DNA of 39,124 nt from an uncultured bacterium (GTDB lineage: Bacteria; RBG-13-66-14; B26-G2; WVWN01): the NCBI GenBank assembly GCA_964631855.1, contig CAZWAM010000005.1:17858-56981 (forward strand), in the 5' to 3' direction. Under the pieces are notes generated by a model, which had not been told where the DNA came from, searched no databases, and saw only the letters and a program-made list of their open reading frames with translations. Positions 13,931 through 21,412 of the stretch are shown here, one piece after another. Numbering within the stretch: the first letter of the stretch is position 1; each line of letters begins with the position of its first letter. Made by a program: the position numbers and the translations under genes.

Positions 13931-15937
13931 GTGAAAGAATGGCGAAATAATTACGGCCGGTTCATCGGGTCCGTCGCGGGCGCGAGTTGTTTGGGCGGCA
14001 TCCTGGCCGGCGCGGGCGAGTACGTATTTGGCGCGGCGCTGGCGCGCGGCGCCTTTTGGGGTACGCCGAGGCAGTTTTTCCAATTGTCGTTTGGGGCGGA
14101 GGTTTTATGGGTGGCCGCGGTCAGTGTGCTCGTGTCTACGTTGGGGTGCTCGTTGTATTATTTTCGGGCGGCGAGGAAGGGGCGCGTGAGTCTCGTTTCG
14201 CCGGCGATATTCGTAATTTTAGTGGCGGCCTTCGGCGCCGCGACTTTTTATTCTTTGGCGACGGTCGACGTCTGGTGGTTTTACGGTAAGCCGAGAGTTG
14301 CGGTGGTAGCGGTATTCTTGTTCACGATTGCGGCGTGGTTTTGCGCGGTTTGGGGGACTTATTATATTATAAATAAAATCGTATCCCGTTCCGCCGCGGC
14401 GAAGCGTCTTTCGGTCGTCGTTTTAAGATTATTAACGCTGGCCTTATTGGCCCCGTTCGTCGTGGCCGACGTATGGGCGCTTTGGCATGCGCGCGGGGCG
14501 CCGCCGCCGCGGCCGGATATATACCTCGTCGTAATGGACGCGTTCCGCGCGGACCGGCTTAGTTGTTACGGCGCGGAACGGCGGCTGGCGCCAAACTTGG
14601 AGGAGTTCGCCGCGGATGCCGCCGTTTTCCGGGAGGCCTTCACCGTTTCGACGTGGACGAAGCCGGCCATAGTTTCGATTTTCACGGCCACTTACCCCGG
14701 CACCCACGGCGTTAACGCCCGGTATTTGGGGCTCCCGGCCGGTACGCGTACGCTGGCGGAGGTTTTGCGCGAAGGGGGTTATACGACCGTATGCGTTTCC
14801 GCAAACCCGAACGTGACCCGGCCCGCGCGGACGGCGGACGGCTTTGACGTCGTGGACAGCACCGGCGACGGGCCGATACTCGCCGCCGCGGGGCCCCCCG
14901 TATCGTGCGCCCGTCTTTTTAGAGTTTTCCCTTGGATGCGGCCGCATTTGGGGCCGCTTTGGAAATCGACGCAGGACGGCGTCGAGATGAACAGGAGGGT
15001 GAGGTTTTGGCGGCGGTTGGCAGGCGACCGGCCTAAGTTCTTTTTTATCCATTATATGGAACCTCATACGCCCAACCCTCCGCGCGCCGAGTACCTGGAC
15101 GAACTAAAACCGTTTTTGGATAAAGTCGACGAGAGCCGCGTCTGCGGAATCGAGTTGGGCAAATATTTCTTCGCCGACGTTGCGAGCGACCCCACCTTCG
15201 TCCCCGACTACGACGACGACGAGATCGCTTTGGCGCGGGCGTTGTACGACGCCGACATTCGCCTGATGGACGTCGTAATAGGGGACCTGCTCGAGGAAGT
15301 CGCTCCCGCCCCGGGGGGAGGACCCGAGCCGGTGATGGTCATTACCGCCGACCACGGCGAGGAGTTCTTGGAGCACGGGCGCTGGCTTCACGGCGCCGGC
15401 CTTCATTACGAGGTGGCGCGTATTCCGTTGCTGGTTCGCGTACCCGGTTGCCGCGCCGCGGCGCTCGAGGGCCCGGTAAATTTAATCGACGTTCCGGCGA
15501 CGTTGGTCTCGTTGGCGGGCGGCGAGGTCCCGCGCGATTGGGAGGGGTTGGATTTAACGTCGTACGTGAAGACGGGTTCGGCCTTGCCGCGTCGCGAGTT
15601 GCTTTTGGAGGGTATCCTCGAAATACTCACGCCCCCCTTCGAGGAGGGCGAAAACGCCGGGATCGAATTAAATGCCTTGGTCGCAGGAGGCTATTATTAC
15701 CTTAGGGATGAGAACGGCGAGGCGGAGTACTTGTACGACCGCGGCCGCGACCCCCGACAAGAGAACAACTTGGCGTCGGACGATAATCCTGACGATGCCG
15801 AGGAGGTGCTATCGCGCTGCCGGGACGCGTTGGCCCGCTGGAAACGGCGCGTTAGGAAAAGGGCTTTCGCGCGGGAAGAAGTCCGCCTGACGCCCGAGCT
15901 CGAGAGGCAGCTAAAGGCGTTGGGTTATATAATGTGA
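13931..15937 (+). CDS. membrane-anchored sulfatase-like hydrolase/transferase (paralog 1)
   Basis: About 5 N-terminal TMs; VMDAFRAD, TWTKPA..S.FT..YP.THG, HYMEPH, TADHGEE, HG, LKALGY. Confidence 0.88.
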   Translation: MKEWRNNYGRFIGSVAGASCLGGILAGAGEYVFGAALARGAFWGTPRQFFQLSFGAEVLWVAAVSVLVSTLGCSLYYFRAARKGRVSLVSPAIFVILVAAFGAATFYSLATVDVWWFYGKPRVAVVAVFLFTIAAWFCAVWGTYYIINKIVSRSAAAKRLSVVVLRLLTLALLAPFVVADVWALWHARGAPPPRPDIYLVVMDAFRADRLSCYGAERRLAPNLEEFAADAAVFREAFTVSTWTKPAIVSIFTATYPGTHGVNARYLGLPAGTRTLAEVLREGGYTTVCVSANPNVTRPARTADGFDVVDSTGDGPILAAAGPPVSCARLFRVFPWMRPHLGPLWKSTQDGVEMNRRVRFWRRLAGDRPKFFFIHYMEPHTPNPPRAEYLDELKPFLDKVDESRVCGIELGKYFFADVASDPTFVPDYDDDEIALARALYDADIRLMDVVIGDLLEEVAPAPGGGPEPVMVITADHGEEFLEHGRWLHGAGLHYEVARIPLLVRVPGCRAAALEGPVNLIDVPATLVSLAGGEVPRDWEGLDLTSYVKTGSALPRRELLLEGILEILTPPFEEGENAGIELNALVAGGYYYLRDENGEAEYLYDRGRDPRQENNLASDDNPDDAEEVLSRCRDALARWKRRVRKRAFAREEVRLTPELERQLKALGYIM

Positions 15938-15962
15938 GGGCCGGCGGGCGCGTAAACGCGGT

Positions 15963-17963
15963 ATGGCCTCGGCTAAGTTGAAAGATTACGGTCGCTTTAT
16001 GGGGCAGCTCGCCGGCGCGAGTATTGCCGCGGGCGTCCTCGCCGCCGCGGGCGAGCACATCCTCGGCGCGGCGTTGGGCCGGGGGCGGTTTTGGGGCGTA
16101 CCGCGGCATTTCTACCAGCTGTCGTTGGGCGTCGAGGCTCTGTGGTTGGCGGTTTTAGCCGTGGCCTTGTTCGGCGTCGCCGGCACCGCGTATTATTGGG
16201 GGATGAGGCGGAAAAGGCCGGTTCGGTTGGCGTCGCCGTCCCTCTTCGTCGTTACCGCCGCGGCCTGCGGCGTCGCGGCCTCCTATTTTTTGGCCACGGT
16301 CGACATCGTGGCCCTATACGCAAAGCCGAGGCTGGCCGCCGTCGCCGTTTGGGCGATATTCCTCGCTACGGTGGCGGCGTGGGTGGCGTTGGCCGTCGTC
16401 GCTTACAGGTTGATAAGTAGAATCCGGCCGCGCGCGGGCGTGCCGTCGGCGTTGAGCGTCGCGGTTCTGCGCGCGTTCACGTTGGCGTTGCTCCTTCCTT
16501 TCGTGGGGGCTGCGGTTTGGGGCGCGTGGCGCGCGCGGGCGCCGCGGCCCCGTAAACCGGATATTTATTTCGTCGTGATGGACGCCTTCCGCGCGGACCG
16601 GCTCGAGCCGTACGGCGCGGCGCGGCGCCTCGCCCCGGCCTTAGAGAATTTTGCGAAAGAAGGGGCGGTTTTTCGCGAAGCCTTCTCGGACTCGTCGTGG
16701 ACGAAGCCCTCCGTCGCCTCGGCCTTTACCTCTACTTCGCCCTCCACTCACGGCGTCAACGGCCTTTTTTCGGCCATACCCGGCGAGGCGGTTACGCTGG
16801 CCGAATACCTGCGCGGATACGGGTATCGGACGCTGGGCGTCTCGGCGAATCTTGAAGTCAGCCGCCAGGCGGGGATGGCCGCCGGCTTCGACATACTGGA
16901 CGGCACCACCCTCGGGCCCGTTCTCGACGCCGCCGGGCCCCCCACGTCCGCGGCGCGCTTCCTCGTGCGGTTTCCGACGGGGTCGTTGTGGCGCTCGAGC
17001 CGCGAAGGCTTATGCGTGAACAGAAGGCTCGCGTTCTGGATGCGGCTCGCGGGCGGGCCGCCCCGGTTCCTTTACATCCATTATATGGAACCCCATACGC
17101 CCAACCTTCCGCGCGCGGAGTACCTGGGCGAACTAAAACCTTTTTTGGATAAAGTCGACGAAAGGCGCGCCCGCGAAATCGAGCTCGGCAAGTACTTTTT
17201 CGCCGAGGTCGCGACGGACCCCGCCTTCGTCCCGGACTACAGCGACGACGAGCTGGGTCTGGCGCGAGCGCTGTACGACGCGGATATCCGCCGGATGGAC
17301 GTCGTGATAGCCGACCTGCTCGAGAACGTTATCCCCGCCTCGCGCCCGGACGCCGAGCCGATAATAATTATTACGGCCGACCACGGCGAGGAGTTTTTGG
17401 AACACGGCCGATGGCTCCACGGCGCAGGGTTTCACCGGGAGGTGGCGGAGATTCCTTTGATAATTAAGTTGCCCGGTTGCGCCCCGGCCGTGCTCGAGGG
17501 CCCGGTGAGTTTGGTCGACCTCGCGCCGACCGTCGCTTCGGCCGTCGGCCTTGCCGTCCCCGACGGGTGGGAGGGTTTGGACTTGACGGCCTACGCGGGG
17601 CGTGGGCAAAAGGTCCCTCGAAGGAACCTTCTTCTGGAGGGGATACAAGAATTGTCCGTCGAGGTCTCGGACCCGTCGCACCGCACCATCGAAATAAACG
17701 TATTGGTGGGTGGCGGCTGTTATTACGTCAAAGACGAGAACGCCGGGGGCGAGTACCTGTACGACCGGCGGCTGGACCCCTGGCAGGTGAACAACCTCGC
17801 CCGGGCCGGTGGGTCTCCGGGACTCGAGGCGGTCCTGGCGGAGCGGCGCGGCGAGCTCGGCCGTATGAAACGCGACGCCCGCGCGCGCGCCTTCGCCCCC
17901 GCCCGTGCTTACATCCCGCCGAGTTTGAAGAAGTCGTTGCGGGCCTTGGGTTATATTAACTGA
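15963..17963 (+). CDS. membrane-anchored sulfatase-like hydrolase/transferase (paralog 2)
   Basis: Same architecture; SWTKPSVASAFT, HYMEPH, TADHGEE, LRALGY. Confidence 0.88.
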   Translation: MASAKLKDYGRFMGQLAGASIAAGVLAAAGEHILGAALGRGRFWGVPRHFYQLSLGVEALWLAVLAVALFGVAGTAYYWGMRRKRPVRLASPSLFVVTAAACGVAASYFLATVDIVALYAKPRLAAVAVWAIFLATVAAWVALAVVAYRLISRIRPRAGVPSALSVAVLRAFTLALLLPFVGAAVWGAWRARAPRPRKPDIYFVVMDAFRADRLEPYGAARRLAPALENFAKEGAVFREAFSDSSWTKPSVASAFTSTSPSTHGVNGLFSAIPGEAVTLAEYLRGYGYRTLGVSANLEVSRQAGMAAGFDILDGTTLGPVLDAAGPPTSAARFLVRFPTGSLWRSSREGLCVNRRLAFWMRLAGGPPRFLYIHYMEPHTPNLPRAEYLGELKPFLDKVDERRAREIELGKYFFAEVATDPAFVPDYSDDELGLARALYDADIRRMDVVIADLLENVIPASRPDAEPIIIITADHGEEFLEHGRWLHGAGFHREVAEIPLIIKLPGCAPAVLEGPVSLVDLAPTVASAVGLAVPDGWEGLDLTAYAGRGQKVPRRNLLLEGIQELSVEVSDPSHRTIEINVLVGGGCYYVKDENAGGEYLYDRRLDPWQVNNLARAGGSPGLEAVLAERRGELGRMKRDARARAFAPARAYIPPSLKKSLRALGYIN

Positions 17964-18018
17964 ACGAGGGGAGTCAGGCGTTGCCGTGAGCGCGGCCCGT
18001 CTTCCGCGTCGCCGAGCC

Positions 18019-18046
18019 TTGACTTTTTTTATTTTTGGGTTATAAT
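18019..18046 (+). promoter_or_regulatory. valS promoter
   Basis: TTGACT, 16 bp, TATAAT. Confidence 0.75.
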
Positions 18047-18078
18047 AACGACGAAGCTGGTTTCAAAGTTTCGACGTT

Positions 18079-18141
18079 ATGATTGAAACGGCGAGCGTAG
18101 TCGTAGTAGTTGTAGACGGGGCGTCGGCCCGGCCTCGTTGA
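18079..18141 (+). CDS. valS attenuator leader peptide (20 aa, six tandem Val)
   Basis: ATG ATT GAA ACG GCG AGC GTA GTC GTA GTA GTT GTA GAC ... CGT TGA = MIETASVVVVVVDGASARPR*. Confidence 0.85.
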   Translation: MIETASVVVVVVDGASARPR

Positions 18142-18187
18142 GGTATACGCGTAGCGTTCAACCAGGCCGGCCTCAGCCGGCTTTTTT
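18129..18187 (+). promoter_or_regulatory. attenuator: mutually exclusive antiterminator and terminator
   Basis: 18129-18141 CCGGCCTcGTTGA pairs with 18158-18170 TCAACcAGGCCGG; terminator AGGCCGGC-CTCA-GCCGGCTT-TTTT at 18164-18187. Confidence 0.85.
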
Positions 18188-18265
18188 GTTGACCGCTAAG
18201 TCAACTGCGTCGGCGCCGGGAGTTTAACCAGGGCGGCCGTGAAGGCCGCGAACGAGGTGATGTTC

Positions 18266-20908
18266 GTGCCCAAGGAACTCGCCCCCCGTTACGACGCGAG
18301 CGAGCTCGAGGGGCGGTGGTACCGCGAGTGGGAGGCGGCGGGTATCTTCACCCCTCCGCCCGAGCCCAAGTCGCCGCGCGGGACCTTCGTCGTCGTCATC
18401 CCGCCGCCCAACGTTACGGGCTCCCTCCACATGGGCCACGCGCTCAACAACACCATCCAGGACATCTACGTCCGACAGCGGCGGATGGCGGGTTTCGATA
18501 CGCTCTGGCTGCCGGGGACGGACCACGCGTCGATCGCGACGCATACGGTCATCGAACGCGAACTCGCGGAACAGGGGCTGAGCCGCCGCGACCTCGGCCG
18601 CGAGGAGTTCCTACGGCGCGCCTGGGCCTGGAGGGAACAATACGGCGGGACCATCGTTCACCAATTGAAGAGGCTCGGCTGCAGCTGTGATTGGACGCGG
18701 CTCCGCTTCACGATGGACGCGATGCTCTCGCGCGCGGTGGTGGAGGCGTTCGTTCGCTACTGGGAAGACGGCCTGCTCTATCGCGGCCGCGGGATGGTCA
18801 ACTGGTGTCCCCGTTGCCGCACCGCCGTATCCGACCTCGAGGTGCGCCACGAGGAGACCGACGGGACCCTTTGGTATATTCGGTATCCGGGCGCGGGGGG
18901 CGGCGAGGGCGTCGTCGTTGCGACCACGCGGCCCGAGACGATGCTCGGCGACACCGCGGTGGCGGTTAACCCGAAGGACGAGCGTTATAAAAAACTGATT
19001 GGCGCTTCGGTCACGTTGCCGCTCGTGGGGCGCGAGATCCCCGTCATCGCCGACGACGCGGTCGACCCCTCGTTCGGGACCGGCGCCGTTAAGATTACCC
19101 CCGGCCACGACGCCGACGACTACGACGTGGCGCAACGCCACGGCCTACCTGCCGTCGTCGCGATCGACGAGGACGCCCGTATGACCGACGAGGTGCCGCC
19201 GAAATATCGCGGCCTGACGCGCGAGGAATGCCGGCAAGCCGTTCTCAAGGACCTCCAGCTCGAGGGACTGCTCGAGACGACGAGACCCTACAAGGTACCG
19301 TTGGCGATATGCGACCGCTGCAAGACCGTGGTCGAGCCGTACCTTTCGCTGCAGTGGTTCGTAAAGCAGGCCGAGCTCGCGCGGCCGGCGCGCGACGCCG
19401 TGGCCCGCGGCGACGTCGAGTTCGTCCCGGAACGTTGGGTCAAGGTCTATTACGATTGGATGGACAACGTCCACGATTGGTGCGTCTCCCGCCAGCTCTG
19501 GTGGGGACACCGCATCCCGGCTTGGTATTGCGGCGAGTGTGAAGAGGTCGTAGTCGCGCGCGAGGCGCCGACGCGTTGCCGCTGCGGCTCGGCGACGCTG
19601 CGTCAGGACGAGGACGTCCTCGACACTTGGTTCAGCTCGGCGCTCTGGCCTTTCTCGACTATGGGGTGGCCGGACGACACGGCCGACATGAAGCATTACT
19701 ATCCTACGGACCTGCTGTGCACCGCCGCGGACATTATCTTCCTGTGGGTGGCGCGGATGATCTTCTCCGCCCTGTATTTCACCGGGCGGGTCCCTTTCCG
19801 CACCGTTTATTTCCACCCCATGATCCAGACGGTCGAGGGCAAGCGCATGTCGAAATCGTTAGGTACGGGCGTGGACCCGCTCTACCTCATCGACCGCAAC
19901 GGCGCCGACGCCGCCCGCTTCACGTTGACCGCCCTCTGCACCCAGTCGCAATCCTTCCGCCTGTGGGAGGAGCGGTTCGAGCTCGGCCGCAACCTCACGA
20001 ATAAGATCTGGAACGCGGCCCGGTTTCTATTGCCCCATATAGAGCGGTCGGGGGAGGGCGAGCTTCCGACGCGGGAGGATTTGGAATTGGTCGACCGTTG
20101 GGTCCTGTCCAAGCTGGAGCGCGCCCGCGCCGAAGCGCAGCAAGAGTTCGACGAGCTGAGGTTCAACGACTACGCGCACACCCTCTACCAATTTTTCTGG
20201 GGCGAATATTGCGACTGGTACCTGGAGGCCATAAAGCCCCGTCTTTACGACAAAGCGCCGGGGGGCGACGCCGCGGCGCGCGTAGCCCGCCACGTGTTCG
20301 ACGTCTTGCTCCGCCTCTTCCACCCGATAATGCCCTTCGTGACCGACGAGCTATATCGTATGTTTGCGCCCGGCCGTGGGTTCTGCGCCCAGGCCCCCTG
20401 GCCGGCCGGAGAAGCGGCCTGGGTGGACGACGCCTCGGTGGCCCGCGTCGAGCGATTGTTCGATATTATCCGCGCCGTACGCAACATCCGCGCCGAGATG
20501 AACGTCCCGCTCGCGAGCACGGTAGACGTTATGCTCGCCTCGGAGGAGGCGGGCGCGGTCTCCCGCGCGGCCGAGGAGTTAACGCCCTTTTTCGGCCTGG
20601 CGCGAATATCGAGCGCGTCGCCGCTGGCCGCGAAAAAGCGGCCGGCCCACGCCGCGGCCGCGGTCGTCGGCGATATGACCGCCTTCGTCCCGCTCGAGGG
20701 CGTGATCGATTTCGACGTCGAGATGAAGCGGCTCAGCCGCGCCAAGGAGAAATTGGAGGGCGACATCGCGACCCTCGGCCGCAAGTTGAGCGACGAGAAC
20801 TTCGTCAAGAAGGCGCCGGCGGACATCGTCGCCGCGGACGCGGAGCGCCTCGAGTCGCTCAAAGCGACGTTGGCTCGCCTCGAGGAGAACCTGAAGGCGC
20901 TTCAGTAA
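18266..20908 (+). CDS. valS: valine--tRNA ligase
   Basis: PPPNVTGSLHMGH, ATTRPET, DWCVSRQLWWGHRIP, DTWFSS, RMSKS, C-terminal coiled coil; GAGGTG SD favours GTG18266 (alternatives 18239, 18260). Confidence 0.97.
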   Translation: MPKELAPRYDASELEGRWYREWEAAGIFTPPPEPKSPRGTFVVVIPPPNVTGSLHMGHALNNTIQDIYVRQRRMAGFDTLWLPGTDHASIATHTVIERELAEQGLSRRDLGREEFLRRAWAWREQYGGTIVHQLKRLGCSCDWTRLRFTMDAMLSRAVVEAFVRYWEDGLLYRGRGMVNWCPRCRTAVSDLEVRHEETDGTLWYIRYPGAGGGEGVVVATTRPETMLGDTAVAVNPKDERYKKLIGASVTLPLVGREIPVIADDAVDPSFGTGAVKITPGHDADDYDVAQRHGLPAVVAIDEDARMTDEVPPKYRGLTREECRQAVLKDLQLEGLLETTRPYKVPLAICDRCKTVVEPYLSLQWFVKQAELARPARDAVARGDVEFVPERWVKVYYDWMDNVHDWCVSRQLWWGHRIPAWYCGECEEVVVAREAPTRCRCGSATLRQDEDVLDTWFSSALWPFSTMGWPDDTADMKHYYPTDLLCTAADIIFLWVARMIFSALYFTGRVPFRTVYFHPMIQTVEGKRMSKSLGTGVDPLYLIDRNGADAARFTLTALCTQSQSFRLWEERFELGRNLTNKIWNAARFLLPHIERSGEGELPTREDLELVDRWVLSKLERARAEAQQEFDELRFNDYAHTLYQFFWGEYCDWYLEAIKPRLYDKAPGGDAAARVARHVFDVLLRLFHPIMPFVTDELYRMFAPGRGFCAQAPWPAGEAAWVDDASVARVERLFDIIRAVRNIRAEMNVPLASTVDVMLASEEAGAVSRAAEELTPFFGLARISSASPLAAKKRPAHAAAAVVGDMTAFVPLEGVIDFDVEMKRLSRAKEKLEGDIATLGRKLSDENFVKKAPADIVAADAERLESLKATLARLEENLKALQ

Positions 20909-20925: not shown

Positions 20926-20954
20926 TTGACGCGTTCGCCCGTCCCTTTTATAAT
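20926..20954 (+). promoter_or_regulatory. sigma70 promoter
   Basis: TTGACG, 17 bp, TATAAT. Confidence 0.75.
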
Positions 20955-20980: not shown

Positions 20981-21412
20981 ATGGACGGAGACGACGAACT
21001 TCGCCGAGGTCGCGGTTGTCTCTTTGTTGCGATCGCCGTGGCGGGTGTGGTCGCGGCCTCGGTCGTGGTGACCCTCCTCTGGGTCAACCGGGCCGCGAAC
21101 GACCCGGCGAGTCGCGGGTATCGGTTGTTGCAAGTTGTCCGCGGCGAGAAGCCCGCGGAGGAGTGGGTTACGGAAGTAATTGTAGGCCGCCTCGCCAAGA
21201 AAGCCGACCTCCCGCCCGACGAGGTAGCCGCGCTGGAGCGCGAGCTGGGGCCGATCTCGAGAGACTTGCCCCGGCTATCGGAGGGCGAGAAGCACAAGCT
21301 CGCCACGCTCGTACGTACGTCGATCGCGGACGGCCGACTGACGGACGAAGAAATTGCGGCTATCCGCGAGTACAGCTATCGGTCCGCGCGCGATGGCAAC
21401 GCCAAACCTTAG
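20981..21412 (+). CDS. single-TM hypothetical protein
   Basis: RRGRGC plus hydrophobic TM and a helical soluble domain. Confidence 0.7.
   Translation: MDGDDELRRGRGCLFVAIAVAGVVAASVVVTLLWVNRAANDPASRGYRLLQVVRGEKPAEEWVTEVIVGRLAKKADLPPDEVAALERELGPISRDLPRLSEGEKHKLATLVRTSIADGRLTDEEIAAIREYSYRSARDGNAKP

What the first reader, a model, noticed from the sequence alone, without database searches (positions are those of the whole stretch)
18019..18268. Ribosome-mediated Val attenuator controlling valS
All parts are visible: promoter; leader MIETASVVVVVVDGASARPR* (four of six Val codons are GTA); an antiterminator whose 5' arm overlaps the leader stop; and a competing U-tailed terminator before valS. Stalling at Val codons leaves the antiterminator free, whereas reaching the stop melts it. 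valS control is classically by T-box in Firmicutes. Leader-peptide attenuation is established for biosynthetic operons and pheST, and I do not know it as described for valS in such a lineage.
Basis: partly seen in the sequence, partly recalled or inferred. Interest (0 to 1): 0.85.

Follow-up and report, generated by a model that had tools for sequence, protein, structure and literature searches.

The report
Valine-sensing leader-peptide attenuator before valS
A short upstream reading frame with six valine codons in a row, followed by two competing RNA hairpins, most likely lets this uncultured bacterium make more valyl-tRNA synthetase when charged valine tRNA runs low; this is a classical control mechanism on a gene and in a lineage where I found no earlier description.

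Summary
Window 18019-18268 holds a near-consensus promoter, a 20-codon uORF with six consecutive Val codons (four GTA), an antiterminator whose 5' arm includes the uORF stop codon, a U-tailed terminator, and then valS.

It is not chance. The same layout precedes valS in 13 of 13 genomes of the order; the named relatives are 'Candidatus Coatesbacteria' MAGs. The stop codon is the 9th codon after the last Val of the run in 14 of 14 leaders. Antiterminator and terminator pairings are kept through compensatory changes, and one terminator column covaries with both of its alternative partners.

The same genome has an Ile-run leader before ileS and a Leu-rich leader before leuS. A genome-wide scan found only two uORF-plus-terminator candidates with at least 5 of 6 identical residues once Arg, Ala, Gly, Ser and Pro runs were set aside. 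Both lie before the cognate synthetase gene.

No T-box was found in 15 of 15 genomes of the class.

The mechanism is classical ribosome-mediated attenuation. Nothing is shown experimentally.

Leader-peptide attenuators are already in print for pheST, trpS, leuS and cysS, and a leader CDS for ileS. My searches found none for valS. This is a new member of a known kind, of moderate interest.

The parts
18019..18046 (+). Sigma-70-type promoter: -35 TTGACT (18019-18024), 16-nt T-rich spacer, -10 TATAAT (18041-18046). The transcription start is inferred near 18053.
   Evidence: 11 of 12 matches. Both hexamers are conserved in the alignment of relatives (TTGAC invariant). The start site itself is inferred, not shown.
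18053..18072 (+). Predicted small 5' hairpin at the start of the leader transcript. Its role is unknown.
   Evidence: MFE fold and the masked folds. I saw by eye that relatives can form a hairpin at the same place (output). This was not tested for covariation.
18079..18141 (+). Leader uORF of 20 codons plus TGA. No clear Shine-Dalgarno sequence lies upstream in this genome.
   Evidence: The frame, start and in-frame stop (TGA, TAA or TAG) are kept in 14 of 14 leaders.
18097..18114 (+). Run of six regulatory Val codons (GTA GTC GTA GTA GTT GTA).
   Evidence: Each of the 14 leaders has 5 to 11 Val codons. GTA makes up 60 of 96 leader Val codons, against 17% of Val codons in ORFs of 500 codons or more in the genome.
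18115..18139 (+). Candidate 1:2 (anti-antiterminator or pause) hairpin: 18115-18122 pairs with 18132-18139. It starts directly after the Val run.
   Evidence: RNAalifold consensus. Isolated fold -12.2 kcal/mol. 84.5% of cells are paired, against 31-60% when slid; 2 pairs have changes on both sides. Support is moderate.
18126..18172 (+). Antiterminator: 5' arm 18126-18141 (last codons of the uORF plus TGA) pairs with 3' arm 18158-18172. An inner hairpin sits in the loop.
   Evidence: Folds of the transcript before the terminator 3' arm is made. The outer helix is 82.6% paired in 14 leaders, with 5 pairs changed on both sides; slid controls give 28-54%.
18164..18190 (+). Intrinsic terminator: stem 18164-18171 with 18176-18183, loop CTCA, T-run 18182-18187, then GTT.
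   Evidence: 93.8% of cells are paired in 14 leaders, with one G-C to A-U compensatory pair. Hairpin energy is -13.5 to -14.0 kcal/mol.
18254..20908 (+). valS: conserved GAGGTG ribosome-binding site (18254-18259), probable GTG start at 18266 (the longest ORF starts at 18239), stop at 20906-20908.
   Evidence: Pfam. Conservation of the GAGGTG-N6-GTG block in relatives. ORF list.

Best explanation
This is a ribosome-mediated (leader-peptide) transcription attenuator that couples valS transcription to the supply of charged tRNA-Val.

Transcription starts at the promoter at 18019-18046, and a ribosome translates the 20-codon leader.

- Val-tRNA plentiful: the ribosome runs to the TGA at 18139-18141. 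There it covers 18126-18141, the 5' arm of the antiterminator. The terminator (18164-18183 plus the U-tract) then folds, and most transcripts end near 18187, before valS.
- Val-tRNA scarce: the ribosome stalls on the six Val codons (18097-18114). Its footprint covers segment 1 (18115-18122) but leaves 18126-18141 free. That segment pairs with 18158-18172 and sequesters the terminator's 5' arm, so RNA polymerase reads through into valS.

Shown by sequence and comparison: all the parts, their conservation, the fixed spacing, and the mutually exclusive pairings with compensatory changes.

Inferred: translation of the uORF, stalling, the kinetic choice between hairpins, and the Val dependence.

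The same design, with Ile and Leu codons, precedes ileS and leuS. The lineage therefore appears to regulate its three branched-chain synthetase genes this way and has no T-boxes.
For: (1) All parts are present at the stated coordinates.

(2) Conservation. A Val-run uORF plus terminator lies upstream of valS in 13 of 13 genomes of the order: 11 within 180 nt and 2 about 1.2 kb upstream with one ORF in between. It also occurs in 3 of 4 close metagenome loci; the fourth has too little flank.

(3) Signs of translation. Val is kept while its codons vary. The in-frame stop varies (TGA, TAA, TAG) but is always the 9th codon after the last Val of the run, in 14 of 14 leaders.

(4) The peptide tail differs between families while the RNA pairing is kept. 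This points to constraint on RNA structure rather than on the peptide.

(5) Covariation:
- Antiterminator outer helix: 82.6% paired, 5 pairs changed on both sides, 0 of 500 shuffles reach the observed score, slid controls 28-54%.
- Terminator: 93.8% paired.
- Alignment column 110 changes G to A together with its antiterminator partner (column 71, C to U) and its terminator partner (column 127, C to U).

(6) Masked folding. The free-energy cost of freeing the terminator's 5' arm averages 12.3 kcal/mol with a ribosome on the middle Val codon and 5.5 with a ribosome on the stop. It is higher on the Val codon in 14 of 14 leaders.

(7) Cognate sister elements:
- An Ile-run leader plus terminator precedes ileS in 12 of 12 genomes of the order where the ileS 5' end was found.
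- A Leu-rich leader plus terminator precedes leuS in 10 of 11 with upstream DNA.

(8) Genome-wide scan: once Arg, Ala, Gly, Ser, Pro and masked-base runs were dropped, only the Val and Ile leaders have at least 5 of 6 identical residues plus a terminator.

(9) GTA is 60 of 96 leader Val codons, against 17% genome-wide.

(10) No T-box or other Rfam family fits here, and no T-box was found in 15 of 15 class genomes.
Against: - No expression, Term-seq or reporter data exist. No RNA run holding this stretch was listed.
- The uORF has no recognisable Shine-Dalgarno sequence in the window, although valS has a strong one.
- At equilibrium the terminator is usually the more stable option. The cost of freeing its 5' arm exceeds the terminator's own stability in only 4 of 14 leaders with a ribosome on the middle Val codon, and in 0 of 14 on the last Val codon. 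Read-through must therefore rest on kinetics, with the antiterminator forming first. This is accepted for classical attenuators (my recall of the trp leader) but is not shown here.
- With no ribosome at all, the antiterminator is predicted to form ('none' state). The untranslated default may then be read-through unless the weaker 1:2 hairpin holds.
- The 14 leaders come from three genera and are related, so shuffle counts overstate significance. The tested antiterminator structure was derived from one of the sequences.
- The overall fold energy of the leader is not unusual (z = -1.88).
Confidence: 0.85

Rival explanations
1. The uORF is a small stand-alone gene for a short hydrophobic peptide with its own terminator. 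valS would be expressed independently, by read-through or from another start, with no sensing of valine.
For: The uORF has its own strong promoter and a terminator directly after it. Relatives in family f2 and the ileS leader carry a second promoter-like site between the terminator and the gene (seen by eye).
Against: - The peptide is conserved only in the Val run. Its tail changes between families while the RNA pairing is kept.
- A run of 5-7 Val is too short for a membrane helix.
- Matching Ile and Leu versions sit before ileS and leuS, which a stand-alone peptide gene does not explain.
- The antiterminator covaries.
Confidence: 0.04
2. The alternative hairpins form a real attenuator, but the signal is not ribosome stalling at Val codons. 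It could be a protein, an uncharged tRNA binding the RNA directly as in a T-box, a small-molecule riboswitch, or Rho with general translation coupling.
For: - The two-hairpin switch alone would be compatible with any trans-acting effector.
- The uORF lacks a clear Shine-Dalgarno sequence.
- The equilibrium energetics do not by themselves give a clean switch.
Against: - No Rfam family matches, including T-box. The best E-value is 2.6, far below gathering, and there is no T-box in the class.
- The leader has no conserved structured domain upstream of the switch that could bind a ligand or tRNA.
- The only feature that changes between the valS, ileS and leuS leaders in step with the gene is the identity of the codon run.
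- The spacing from run to stop is fixed at 8 intervening codons.
Confidence: 0.07
3. The uORF encodes an arrest peptide. Its conserved C-terminal residues (Ala-Arg-Pro-x before the stop in family f1) would stall the ribosome at or near termination in response to some signal, as TnaC does.
For: A conserved tail of Gly-Ala-x-Ala-Arg-Pro-x before the stop occurs in the 10 family-f1 leaders. TnaC also has a proline next to its stop codon (recalled, not tested).
Against: - The tail is different in family f2 (Gly-Pro-Pro-Val... ), while the base pairing it encodes is preserved by compensatory changes.
- A ribosome arrested at the stop would cover the antiterminator arm and favour termination. That gives no obvious link to valS need.
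Confidence: 0.03

Closest known systems
Classical leader-peptide attenuators of amino-acid operons and of pheST in Enterobacteria (trpL, hisL, ilvL, ivbL, pheST leader)
   Same: - A promoter, then a short ORF with tandem codons cognate to the regulated function.
- An intrinsic terminator and a mutually exclusive antiterminator.
- The ribosome's position selects which hairpin forms.
- A candidate 1:2 hairpin directly after the regulatory codons.
- As with pheST, the regulated gene is the synthetase itself.
   Different: - There is no sequence similarity and no Rfam leader family matches.
- The target is valS.
- The antiterminator 5' arm includes the stop codon.
- The 1:2 hairpin is weak compared with the antiterminator (about -12 against about -26 kcal/mol in the window), so the untranslated default may be read-through.
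- The host is an uncultured candidate phylum.
[quoted passage not shown]
   Same: A cognate-codon uORF followed by a terminator upstream of an aminoacyl-tRNA synthetase gene, interpreted as ribosome-mediated attenuation.
   Different: - The genes, lineages and sequences differ.
- None of these papers mentions valS in the passages I read; the term count for 'valS' was 0 in all three.
- Here three synthetase genes of one amino-acid family (Val, Ile, Leu) carry such leaders in the same genome.
T-box riboswitch (Rfam RF00230), the usual control of valS in Firmicutes
   Same: The regulatory logic is the same: low charged tRNA leads to antitermination and more synthetase. The read-out is the same too, a competition between terminator and antiterminator.
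   Different: There is no specifier loop or T-box motif and no Rfam match here. No T-box was found in 15 of 15 genomes of the class. The sensor is a translating ribosome rather than direct tRNA binding.

Membership tests
Ribosome-mediated (leader-peptide) transcription attenuator | Short ORF in the 5' leader with tandem codons for the amino acid related to the downstream gene | tested here: met
   Six consecutive Val codons lie in a 20-codon uORF before valS. The feature is conserved in 14 of 14 leaders. Cognate Ile and Leu versions precede ileS and leuS.
Ribosome-mediated (leader-peptide) transcription attenuator | Intrinsic terminator between the uORF and the regulated gene | tested here: met
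   An 8-pair G+C-rich stem plus T6 lies at 18164-18190. 93.8% of cells are paired across 14 leaders. This is a sequence-level test only; termination itself was not measured.
Ribosome-mediated (leader-peptide) transcription attenuator | Antiterminator mutually exclusive with the terminator, placed so that a ribosome at the end of the uORF blocks it and a ribosome on the regulatory codons does not | tested here: met
   18126-18141 pairs with 18158-18172. The pairing covaries. Masked folding gives a cost of 12.3 against 5.5 kcal/mol, with the same direction in 14 of 14 leaders. The stop is the 9th codon after the run in 14 of 14.
Ribosome-mediated (leader-peptide) transcription attenuator | 1:2 pause or anti-antiterminator hairpin that includes or abuts the regulatory codons | tested here: inconclusive
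   A candidate lies at 18115-18122 with 18132-18139. It is 84.5% paired, with 2 pairs changed on both sides. It is weaker than the antiterminator. Pausing cannot be tested.
Ribosome-mediated (leader-peptide) transcription attenuator | The uORF is translated (ribosome-binding site and start codon) | tested here: inconclusive
   A start codon is present in 14 of 14 leaders (13 ATG, 1 GTG), and the frame and stop are conserved. No clear Shine-Dalgarno sequence is present in the window. No ribosome profiling data exist.
Ribosome-mediated (leader-peptide) transcription attenuator | Read-through rises when the cognate charged tRNA is limiting | not testable with these tools
   The organism is uncultured, and no RNA run holding the stretch was listed.
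T-box riboswitch (RF00230) | Match to the T-box covariance model (specifier loop, T-box sequence) | tested here: not met
   No T-box match at E up to 10 in 17500-18700. None in 15 of 15 class genomes. In the control genomes the model rang in 5 of 14, over its cut-off in 2.
Rfam amino-acid leader families (Leu, His, Thr, Trp, Phe leaders and others in Rfam 15) | Covariance-model match | tested here: not met
   Only three chance-level matches to unrelated families, with E of 2.6 or worse. At gathering thresholds the whole window gives only a tRNA.

The most novel reading that the evidence does not exclude
Leader-peptide attenuation of valS has not been described before. In this T-box-free candidate phylum, three cognate attenuators (Val, Ile, Leu) form a small regulon over the branched-chain aminoacyl-tRNA synthetase genes.

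Their design lets the terminating ribosome itself act as the main anti-antiterminator, because the antiterminator arm contains the stop codon.

Unrelated Val-rich leaders with terminators also occur before valS in a Fusobacteriales MAG and in an unnamed low-GC family. This would mean the solution arose several times independently wherever T-boxes are absent.
Probability: 0.5. Interest if true: 0.55.

Novelty: new member of a known kind. Interest (0 to 1): 0.42.

Why it matters
It extends leader-peptide attenuation to valS, and to a coordinated Val/Ile/Leu synthetase set, in an uncultured candidate phylum. It shows how a lineage without T-boxes achieves the same feedback from tRNA charging to synthetase supply.

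The strictly fixed geometry (8 codons between the run and the stop) and the column that covaries with both alternative partners make this a clean natural example for modelling attenuators. They also give a compact, portable part for valine or Val-tRNA-responsive reporters.

It adds no new mechanism. Its value is in annotation and in the evolution of regulation.

Tried and rejected
Searches and folds that led nowhere or were superseded:

- Rfam scan of 17500-18700 at E up to 10 gave only chance-level hits to unrelated snoRNA and sRNA families. The whole window at gathering thresholds gave only tRNA-Met.
- Rfam on 15 valS loci of other lineages gave only a 5S rRNA.
- The T-box model gave no match in 15 of 15 class genomes.
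- Equilibrium folding of the full leader with ribosome masks gave mixed answers, and the script crashed on the 7th sequence. I replaced it.
- The replacement measure, the probability that the terminator's 5' arm is paired upstream, discriminated poorly. The means were 0.65 with a ribosome at the stop and 0.94 at the middle Val. The palindromic G+C-rich arm finds other partners.
- I therefore used the free-energy cost of freeing the arm.

Expression data:
- No RNA holder was listed for the stretch.

Side questions:
- I looked for a leader before the branched-chain biosynthesis genes. ilvC (G000:C26) and ilvD (G000:C70) are present. I saw no leader in the upstream DNA I read. The ORF run upstream of ilvC begins 118 nt from a contig end, and its first ORFs were not identified.
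- Pfam found no family for the 366-aa ORF between the leader and valS in G009, nor for the 143-aa ORF after valS.
- No cognate leader was seen by eye before the metS-, thrS-, serS-, proS-, hisS-, tyrS-, trpS- (two copies) and pheS-like genes of the genome. Which amino acid each of these serves was guessed from Pfam family and length, not tested. The other synthetase genes were not examined.

Rejected readings:
- A type I toxin or membrane-peptide reading was rejected because the Val run is too short.

Literature:
- Searches for valS or valyl-tRNA synthetase with 'leader peptide' or 'attenuation' found nothing relevant. Searches on synthetase leaders in general are.
- Lopatovskaya et al. 2010 (Mol Biol 44:128) surveys attenuation of aminoacyl-tRNA synthesis operons, judging by its title, and may already list valS. 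It is not held and I did not see it.
- Supplements of the papers I read were not opened.
Full report
WHAT IS THERE

Reading window 17700-18500 with the ORF list and the consensus scan confirms every element of the finding:
- Promoter: TTGACT (18019-18024), a 16-nt T-rich spacer and TATAAT (18041-18046), 11 of 12 matches. The 4.5-kb scan found two such sites, against 0.5 expected from shuffles.
- uORF: 18079-18141, 20 codons, reading MIETASVVVVVVDGASARPR and ending in TGA.
- Val codons: 18097-18114, read GTA GTC GTA GTA GTT GTA.
- Terminator: 18164-18171 pairs with 18176-18183 (8 pairs, loop of 4), followed by T6 (18182-18187).
- Downstream gene: valS by Pfam (tRNA-synt_1 9.7e-126, Anticodon_1, Val_tRNA-synt_C).

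The longest valS ORF starts at 18239. Relatives conserve a GAGGTG block and a GTG six bases later, which in the window is 18254-18259 and 18266-18268. The real start is therefore probably 18266.

No Rfam family fits the leader. The best E-value was 2.6, against unrelated families. The fold energy of the whole leader is not unusual (z = -1.88).

LINEAGE

The closest named valS loci are MAGs titled 'Candidatus Coatesbacteria'; one is labelled Zixiibacteriota. The window lies in a 2.49-Mb assembly of 173 contigs with 62% G+C. The class holds only 15 species genomes in the library, and all were examined.

CONSERVATION

Among the 30 valS loci fetched from relatives, 11 of the 13 genomes of the order have a uORF with a Val run within 180 nt of valS. 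The other two, G009 and G008, have the same leader about 1.2 kb upstream. In G009 its peptide is identical to the window's. An ORF of 366 aa with no Pfam family lies between that leader and valS. The leader is therefore present in 13 of 13.

Three of four close metagenome loci also have it. The fourth is a near-copy of G009 with only 1200 nt of flank, which is too short to reach the leader.

The two other genomes of the class, and the loci examined from the second family of the phylum, show no such uORF within 450-600 nt.

Of 153 distinct valS loci outside the order, only 2 have a uORF with at least 4 Val in 6 followed by a terminator. That filter is strict: it also misses two true leaders of the order.

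SIGNS THAT THE uORF IS READ

I compared 14 distinct leaders (alignment A2).
- The start codon is ATG in 13 and GTG in 1.
- The Val run is kept while its codons vary.
- The stop codon varies (TGA, TAA, TAG) but is always the 9th codon after the last Val of the run, in 14 of 14.
- GTA makes up 60 of 96 Val codons in the leaders, against 17% of Val codons in ORFs of at least 500 codons in the genome.

The leaders are related, so these counts are not independent events.

The peptide tail differs between the two families. The bases that encode it keep their pairing, which points to RNA structure as the constraint.

ALTERNATIVE STRUCTURES

I folded each leader up to the point where the terminator's 3' arm is not yet made. 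In every case the last codons of the uORF pair with the terminator's 5' arm. In the window this antiterminator is 18126-18141 (including the TGA) with 18158-18172.

On alignment A2:
- Antiterminator outer helix: 82.6% paired, 5 pairs changed on both sides. None of 500 shuffles reaches its covariation score, and sliding the partner by 1-3 columns gives 28-54% paired.
- Terminator: 93.8% paired.
- Column 110 of the terminator's 5' arm changes from G to A in two leaders together with both of its partners: column 71 in the antiterminator and column 127 in the terminator. This is the pattern expected of two mutually exclusive helices.

RNAalifold also proposes a hairpin directly after the Val run. 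In the window it is 18115-18122 with 18132-18139. It is 84.5% paired with modest covariation. Its energy is about -12 kcal/mol, against about -26 for the antiterminator region and -14 for the terminator. This would be the 1:2 element of a classical attenuator, and I rate its support as moderate.

A MECHANICAL TEST IN SILICO

I masked 30 nt around the A-site codon and computed the free-energy cost of freeing the terminator's 5' arm.
- Ribosome on the middle Val codon: 12.3 kcal/mol on average.
- Ribosome on the stop codon: 5.5 kcal/mol on average.
- The cost is higher on the Val codon in 14 of 14 leaders.

The cost exceeds the terminator's own stability in only 4 of 14 leaders on the middle Val codon, and in none on the last Val codon. 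The switch must therefore be kinetic, with the antiterminator forming before the terminator's 3' arm emerges. I recall the same being true for the trp leader.

Two earlier measures were less informative.

SISTER ELEMENTS

I scanned the genome for uORFs with at least 4 of 6 identical residues followed by a terminator, and dropped runs of Arg, Ala, Gly, Ser, Pro and masked bases. Only two candidates remained with at least 5 of 6 identical residues: the Val leader, and a 25-codon uORF with five consecutive Ile codons. The Ile uORF lies before a partial gene at a contig end whose product is the N-terminus of IleRS.

Reading the upstream DNA of the other class I and several class II synthetase genes showed a 16-codon uORF with four Leu in five codons, plus a terminator, before leuS. 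I saw nothing comparable before the other nine genes examined.
- The Ile leader is present in 12 of 12 genomes of the order in which the ileS 5' end was found.
- The Leu leader is present in 10 of 11 leuS loci with upstream DNA. It is absent in G011.

No T-box was found in any of the 15 class genomes.

WHAT IS KNOWN

Leader-peptide attenuation is a textbook mechanism for biosynthetic operons and pheST. From the passages I read:
- PMC1262725 predicts classical attenuators for trpS and leuS in Streptomyces.
- PMC4117421 reports leader CDSs before trpS and ileS in Caulobacter, found by ribosome profiling.
- PMC8632094 describes a Cys-codon uORF motif before cysS and calls the mechanism unsurprising.

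'valS' occurs in none of these three. My searches for valS or valyl-tRNA synthetase with 'leader peptide' or 'attenuation' found nothing relevant. Lopatovskaya et al. 2010, a survey whose title covers aminoacyl-tRNA operons, is not held and may already include valS.

VERDICT

It is a classical ribosome-mediated attenuator applied to valS, and to ileS and leuS, in a T-box-free candidate phylum. That makes it a new member of a known kind.

No experiment supports it yet.

Unrelated Val-rich leaders with terminators also occur before valS elsewhere, which hints at repeated independent origin. They are in a Fusobacteriales MAG and in 3 of 4 genomes of an unnamed low-G+C family; in one of those three the Val enrichment was judged by eye and did not pass the script's filter.

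Noticed in passing
G000:C97:357-672, minus strand (locus L192/L194): ileS of the same genome is preceded by a promoter, a 25-codon uORF with five consecutive Ile codons, a G+C-rich terminator with a T-run, and then a second promoter-like site (TTGACT, 17 nt, TAAAAT; seen by eye) before the ileS start. The Ile leader is conserved in 12 of 12 genomes of the order where the ileS 5' end was found.
   Followed up: partly
G000:C3:25860-26058 (locus L193/L208): leuS is preceded by a promoter-like site, a 16-codon uORF with four Leu in five codons (CTA and CTC codons) and a terminator. It is conserved in 10 of 11 leuS loci of the order with upstream DNA and is absent in G011.
   Followed up: partly
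L002:204-1432 and L008 (G009, G008): In two genomes of the genus, a 366-aa ORF with no Pfam family sits between the Val leader and valS. The attenuator there would control a two-gene unit.
   Followed up: partly
L056; L058; L065 (Fusobacteriales MAGs): Val-rich short uORFs lie upstream of valS in 3 of 6 Fusobacteriales-labelled loci. L056 also has a terminator, and its 5' arm can pair with the bases just after the uORF stop (for the terminator; the pairing was seen by eye).
   Followed up: partly
L029/L221, L222, L224 (unnamed low-G+C family of G040): Three of four genomes have a short uORF plus a strong terminator upstream of valS. Two pass the script's filter of at least 3 Val in 6. The third (L224) is only modestly Val-enriched and was read by eye. 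The sequences are unrelated to the Coatesbacteria leader.
   Followed up: partly
L011, L012, L115 (family f2), between terminator and valS: A second promoter-like site (TTGATATAAT, seen by eye) lies downstream of the attenuator terminator. It may be a basal promoter that bypasses attenuation.
   Followed up: no
window 18239-18268: The longest valS ORF starts at GTG 18239. The conserved GAGGTG and the GTG at 18266 suggest that the true start is 18266.
   Followed up: partly
G000 genome (ARAGORN run): ARAGORN calls a tRNA-Ile with anticodon TAT, and ATA is about 33% of Ile codons in long ORFs. tRNA-Val GAC and CAC were found, but no tRNA-Val TAC, although GTA is the main leader codon. The assembly is 92% complete, so absence is not shown.
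   Followed up: no
window 13931-17963: Two tandem paralogous genes of the sulfatase family (668 and 666 aa; Pfam PF00884) lie directly upstream of the leader. No terminator-like site was found between the second one and the leader promoter.
   Followed up: no
window 20926-20954 and 20981-21412: A second near-consensus promoter (TTGACG, 17 nt, TATAAT; 11 of 12) sits right after the valS stop. It precedes a 143-aa ORF with no Pfam family, and no terminator follows valS.
   Followed up: partly
L009 (G001) valS: The valS match in this genome contains one in-frame TAG. This may be a sequencing error or a real break.
   Followed up: no
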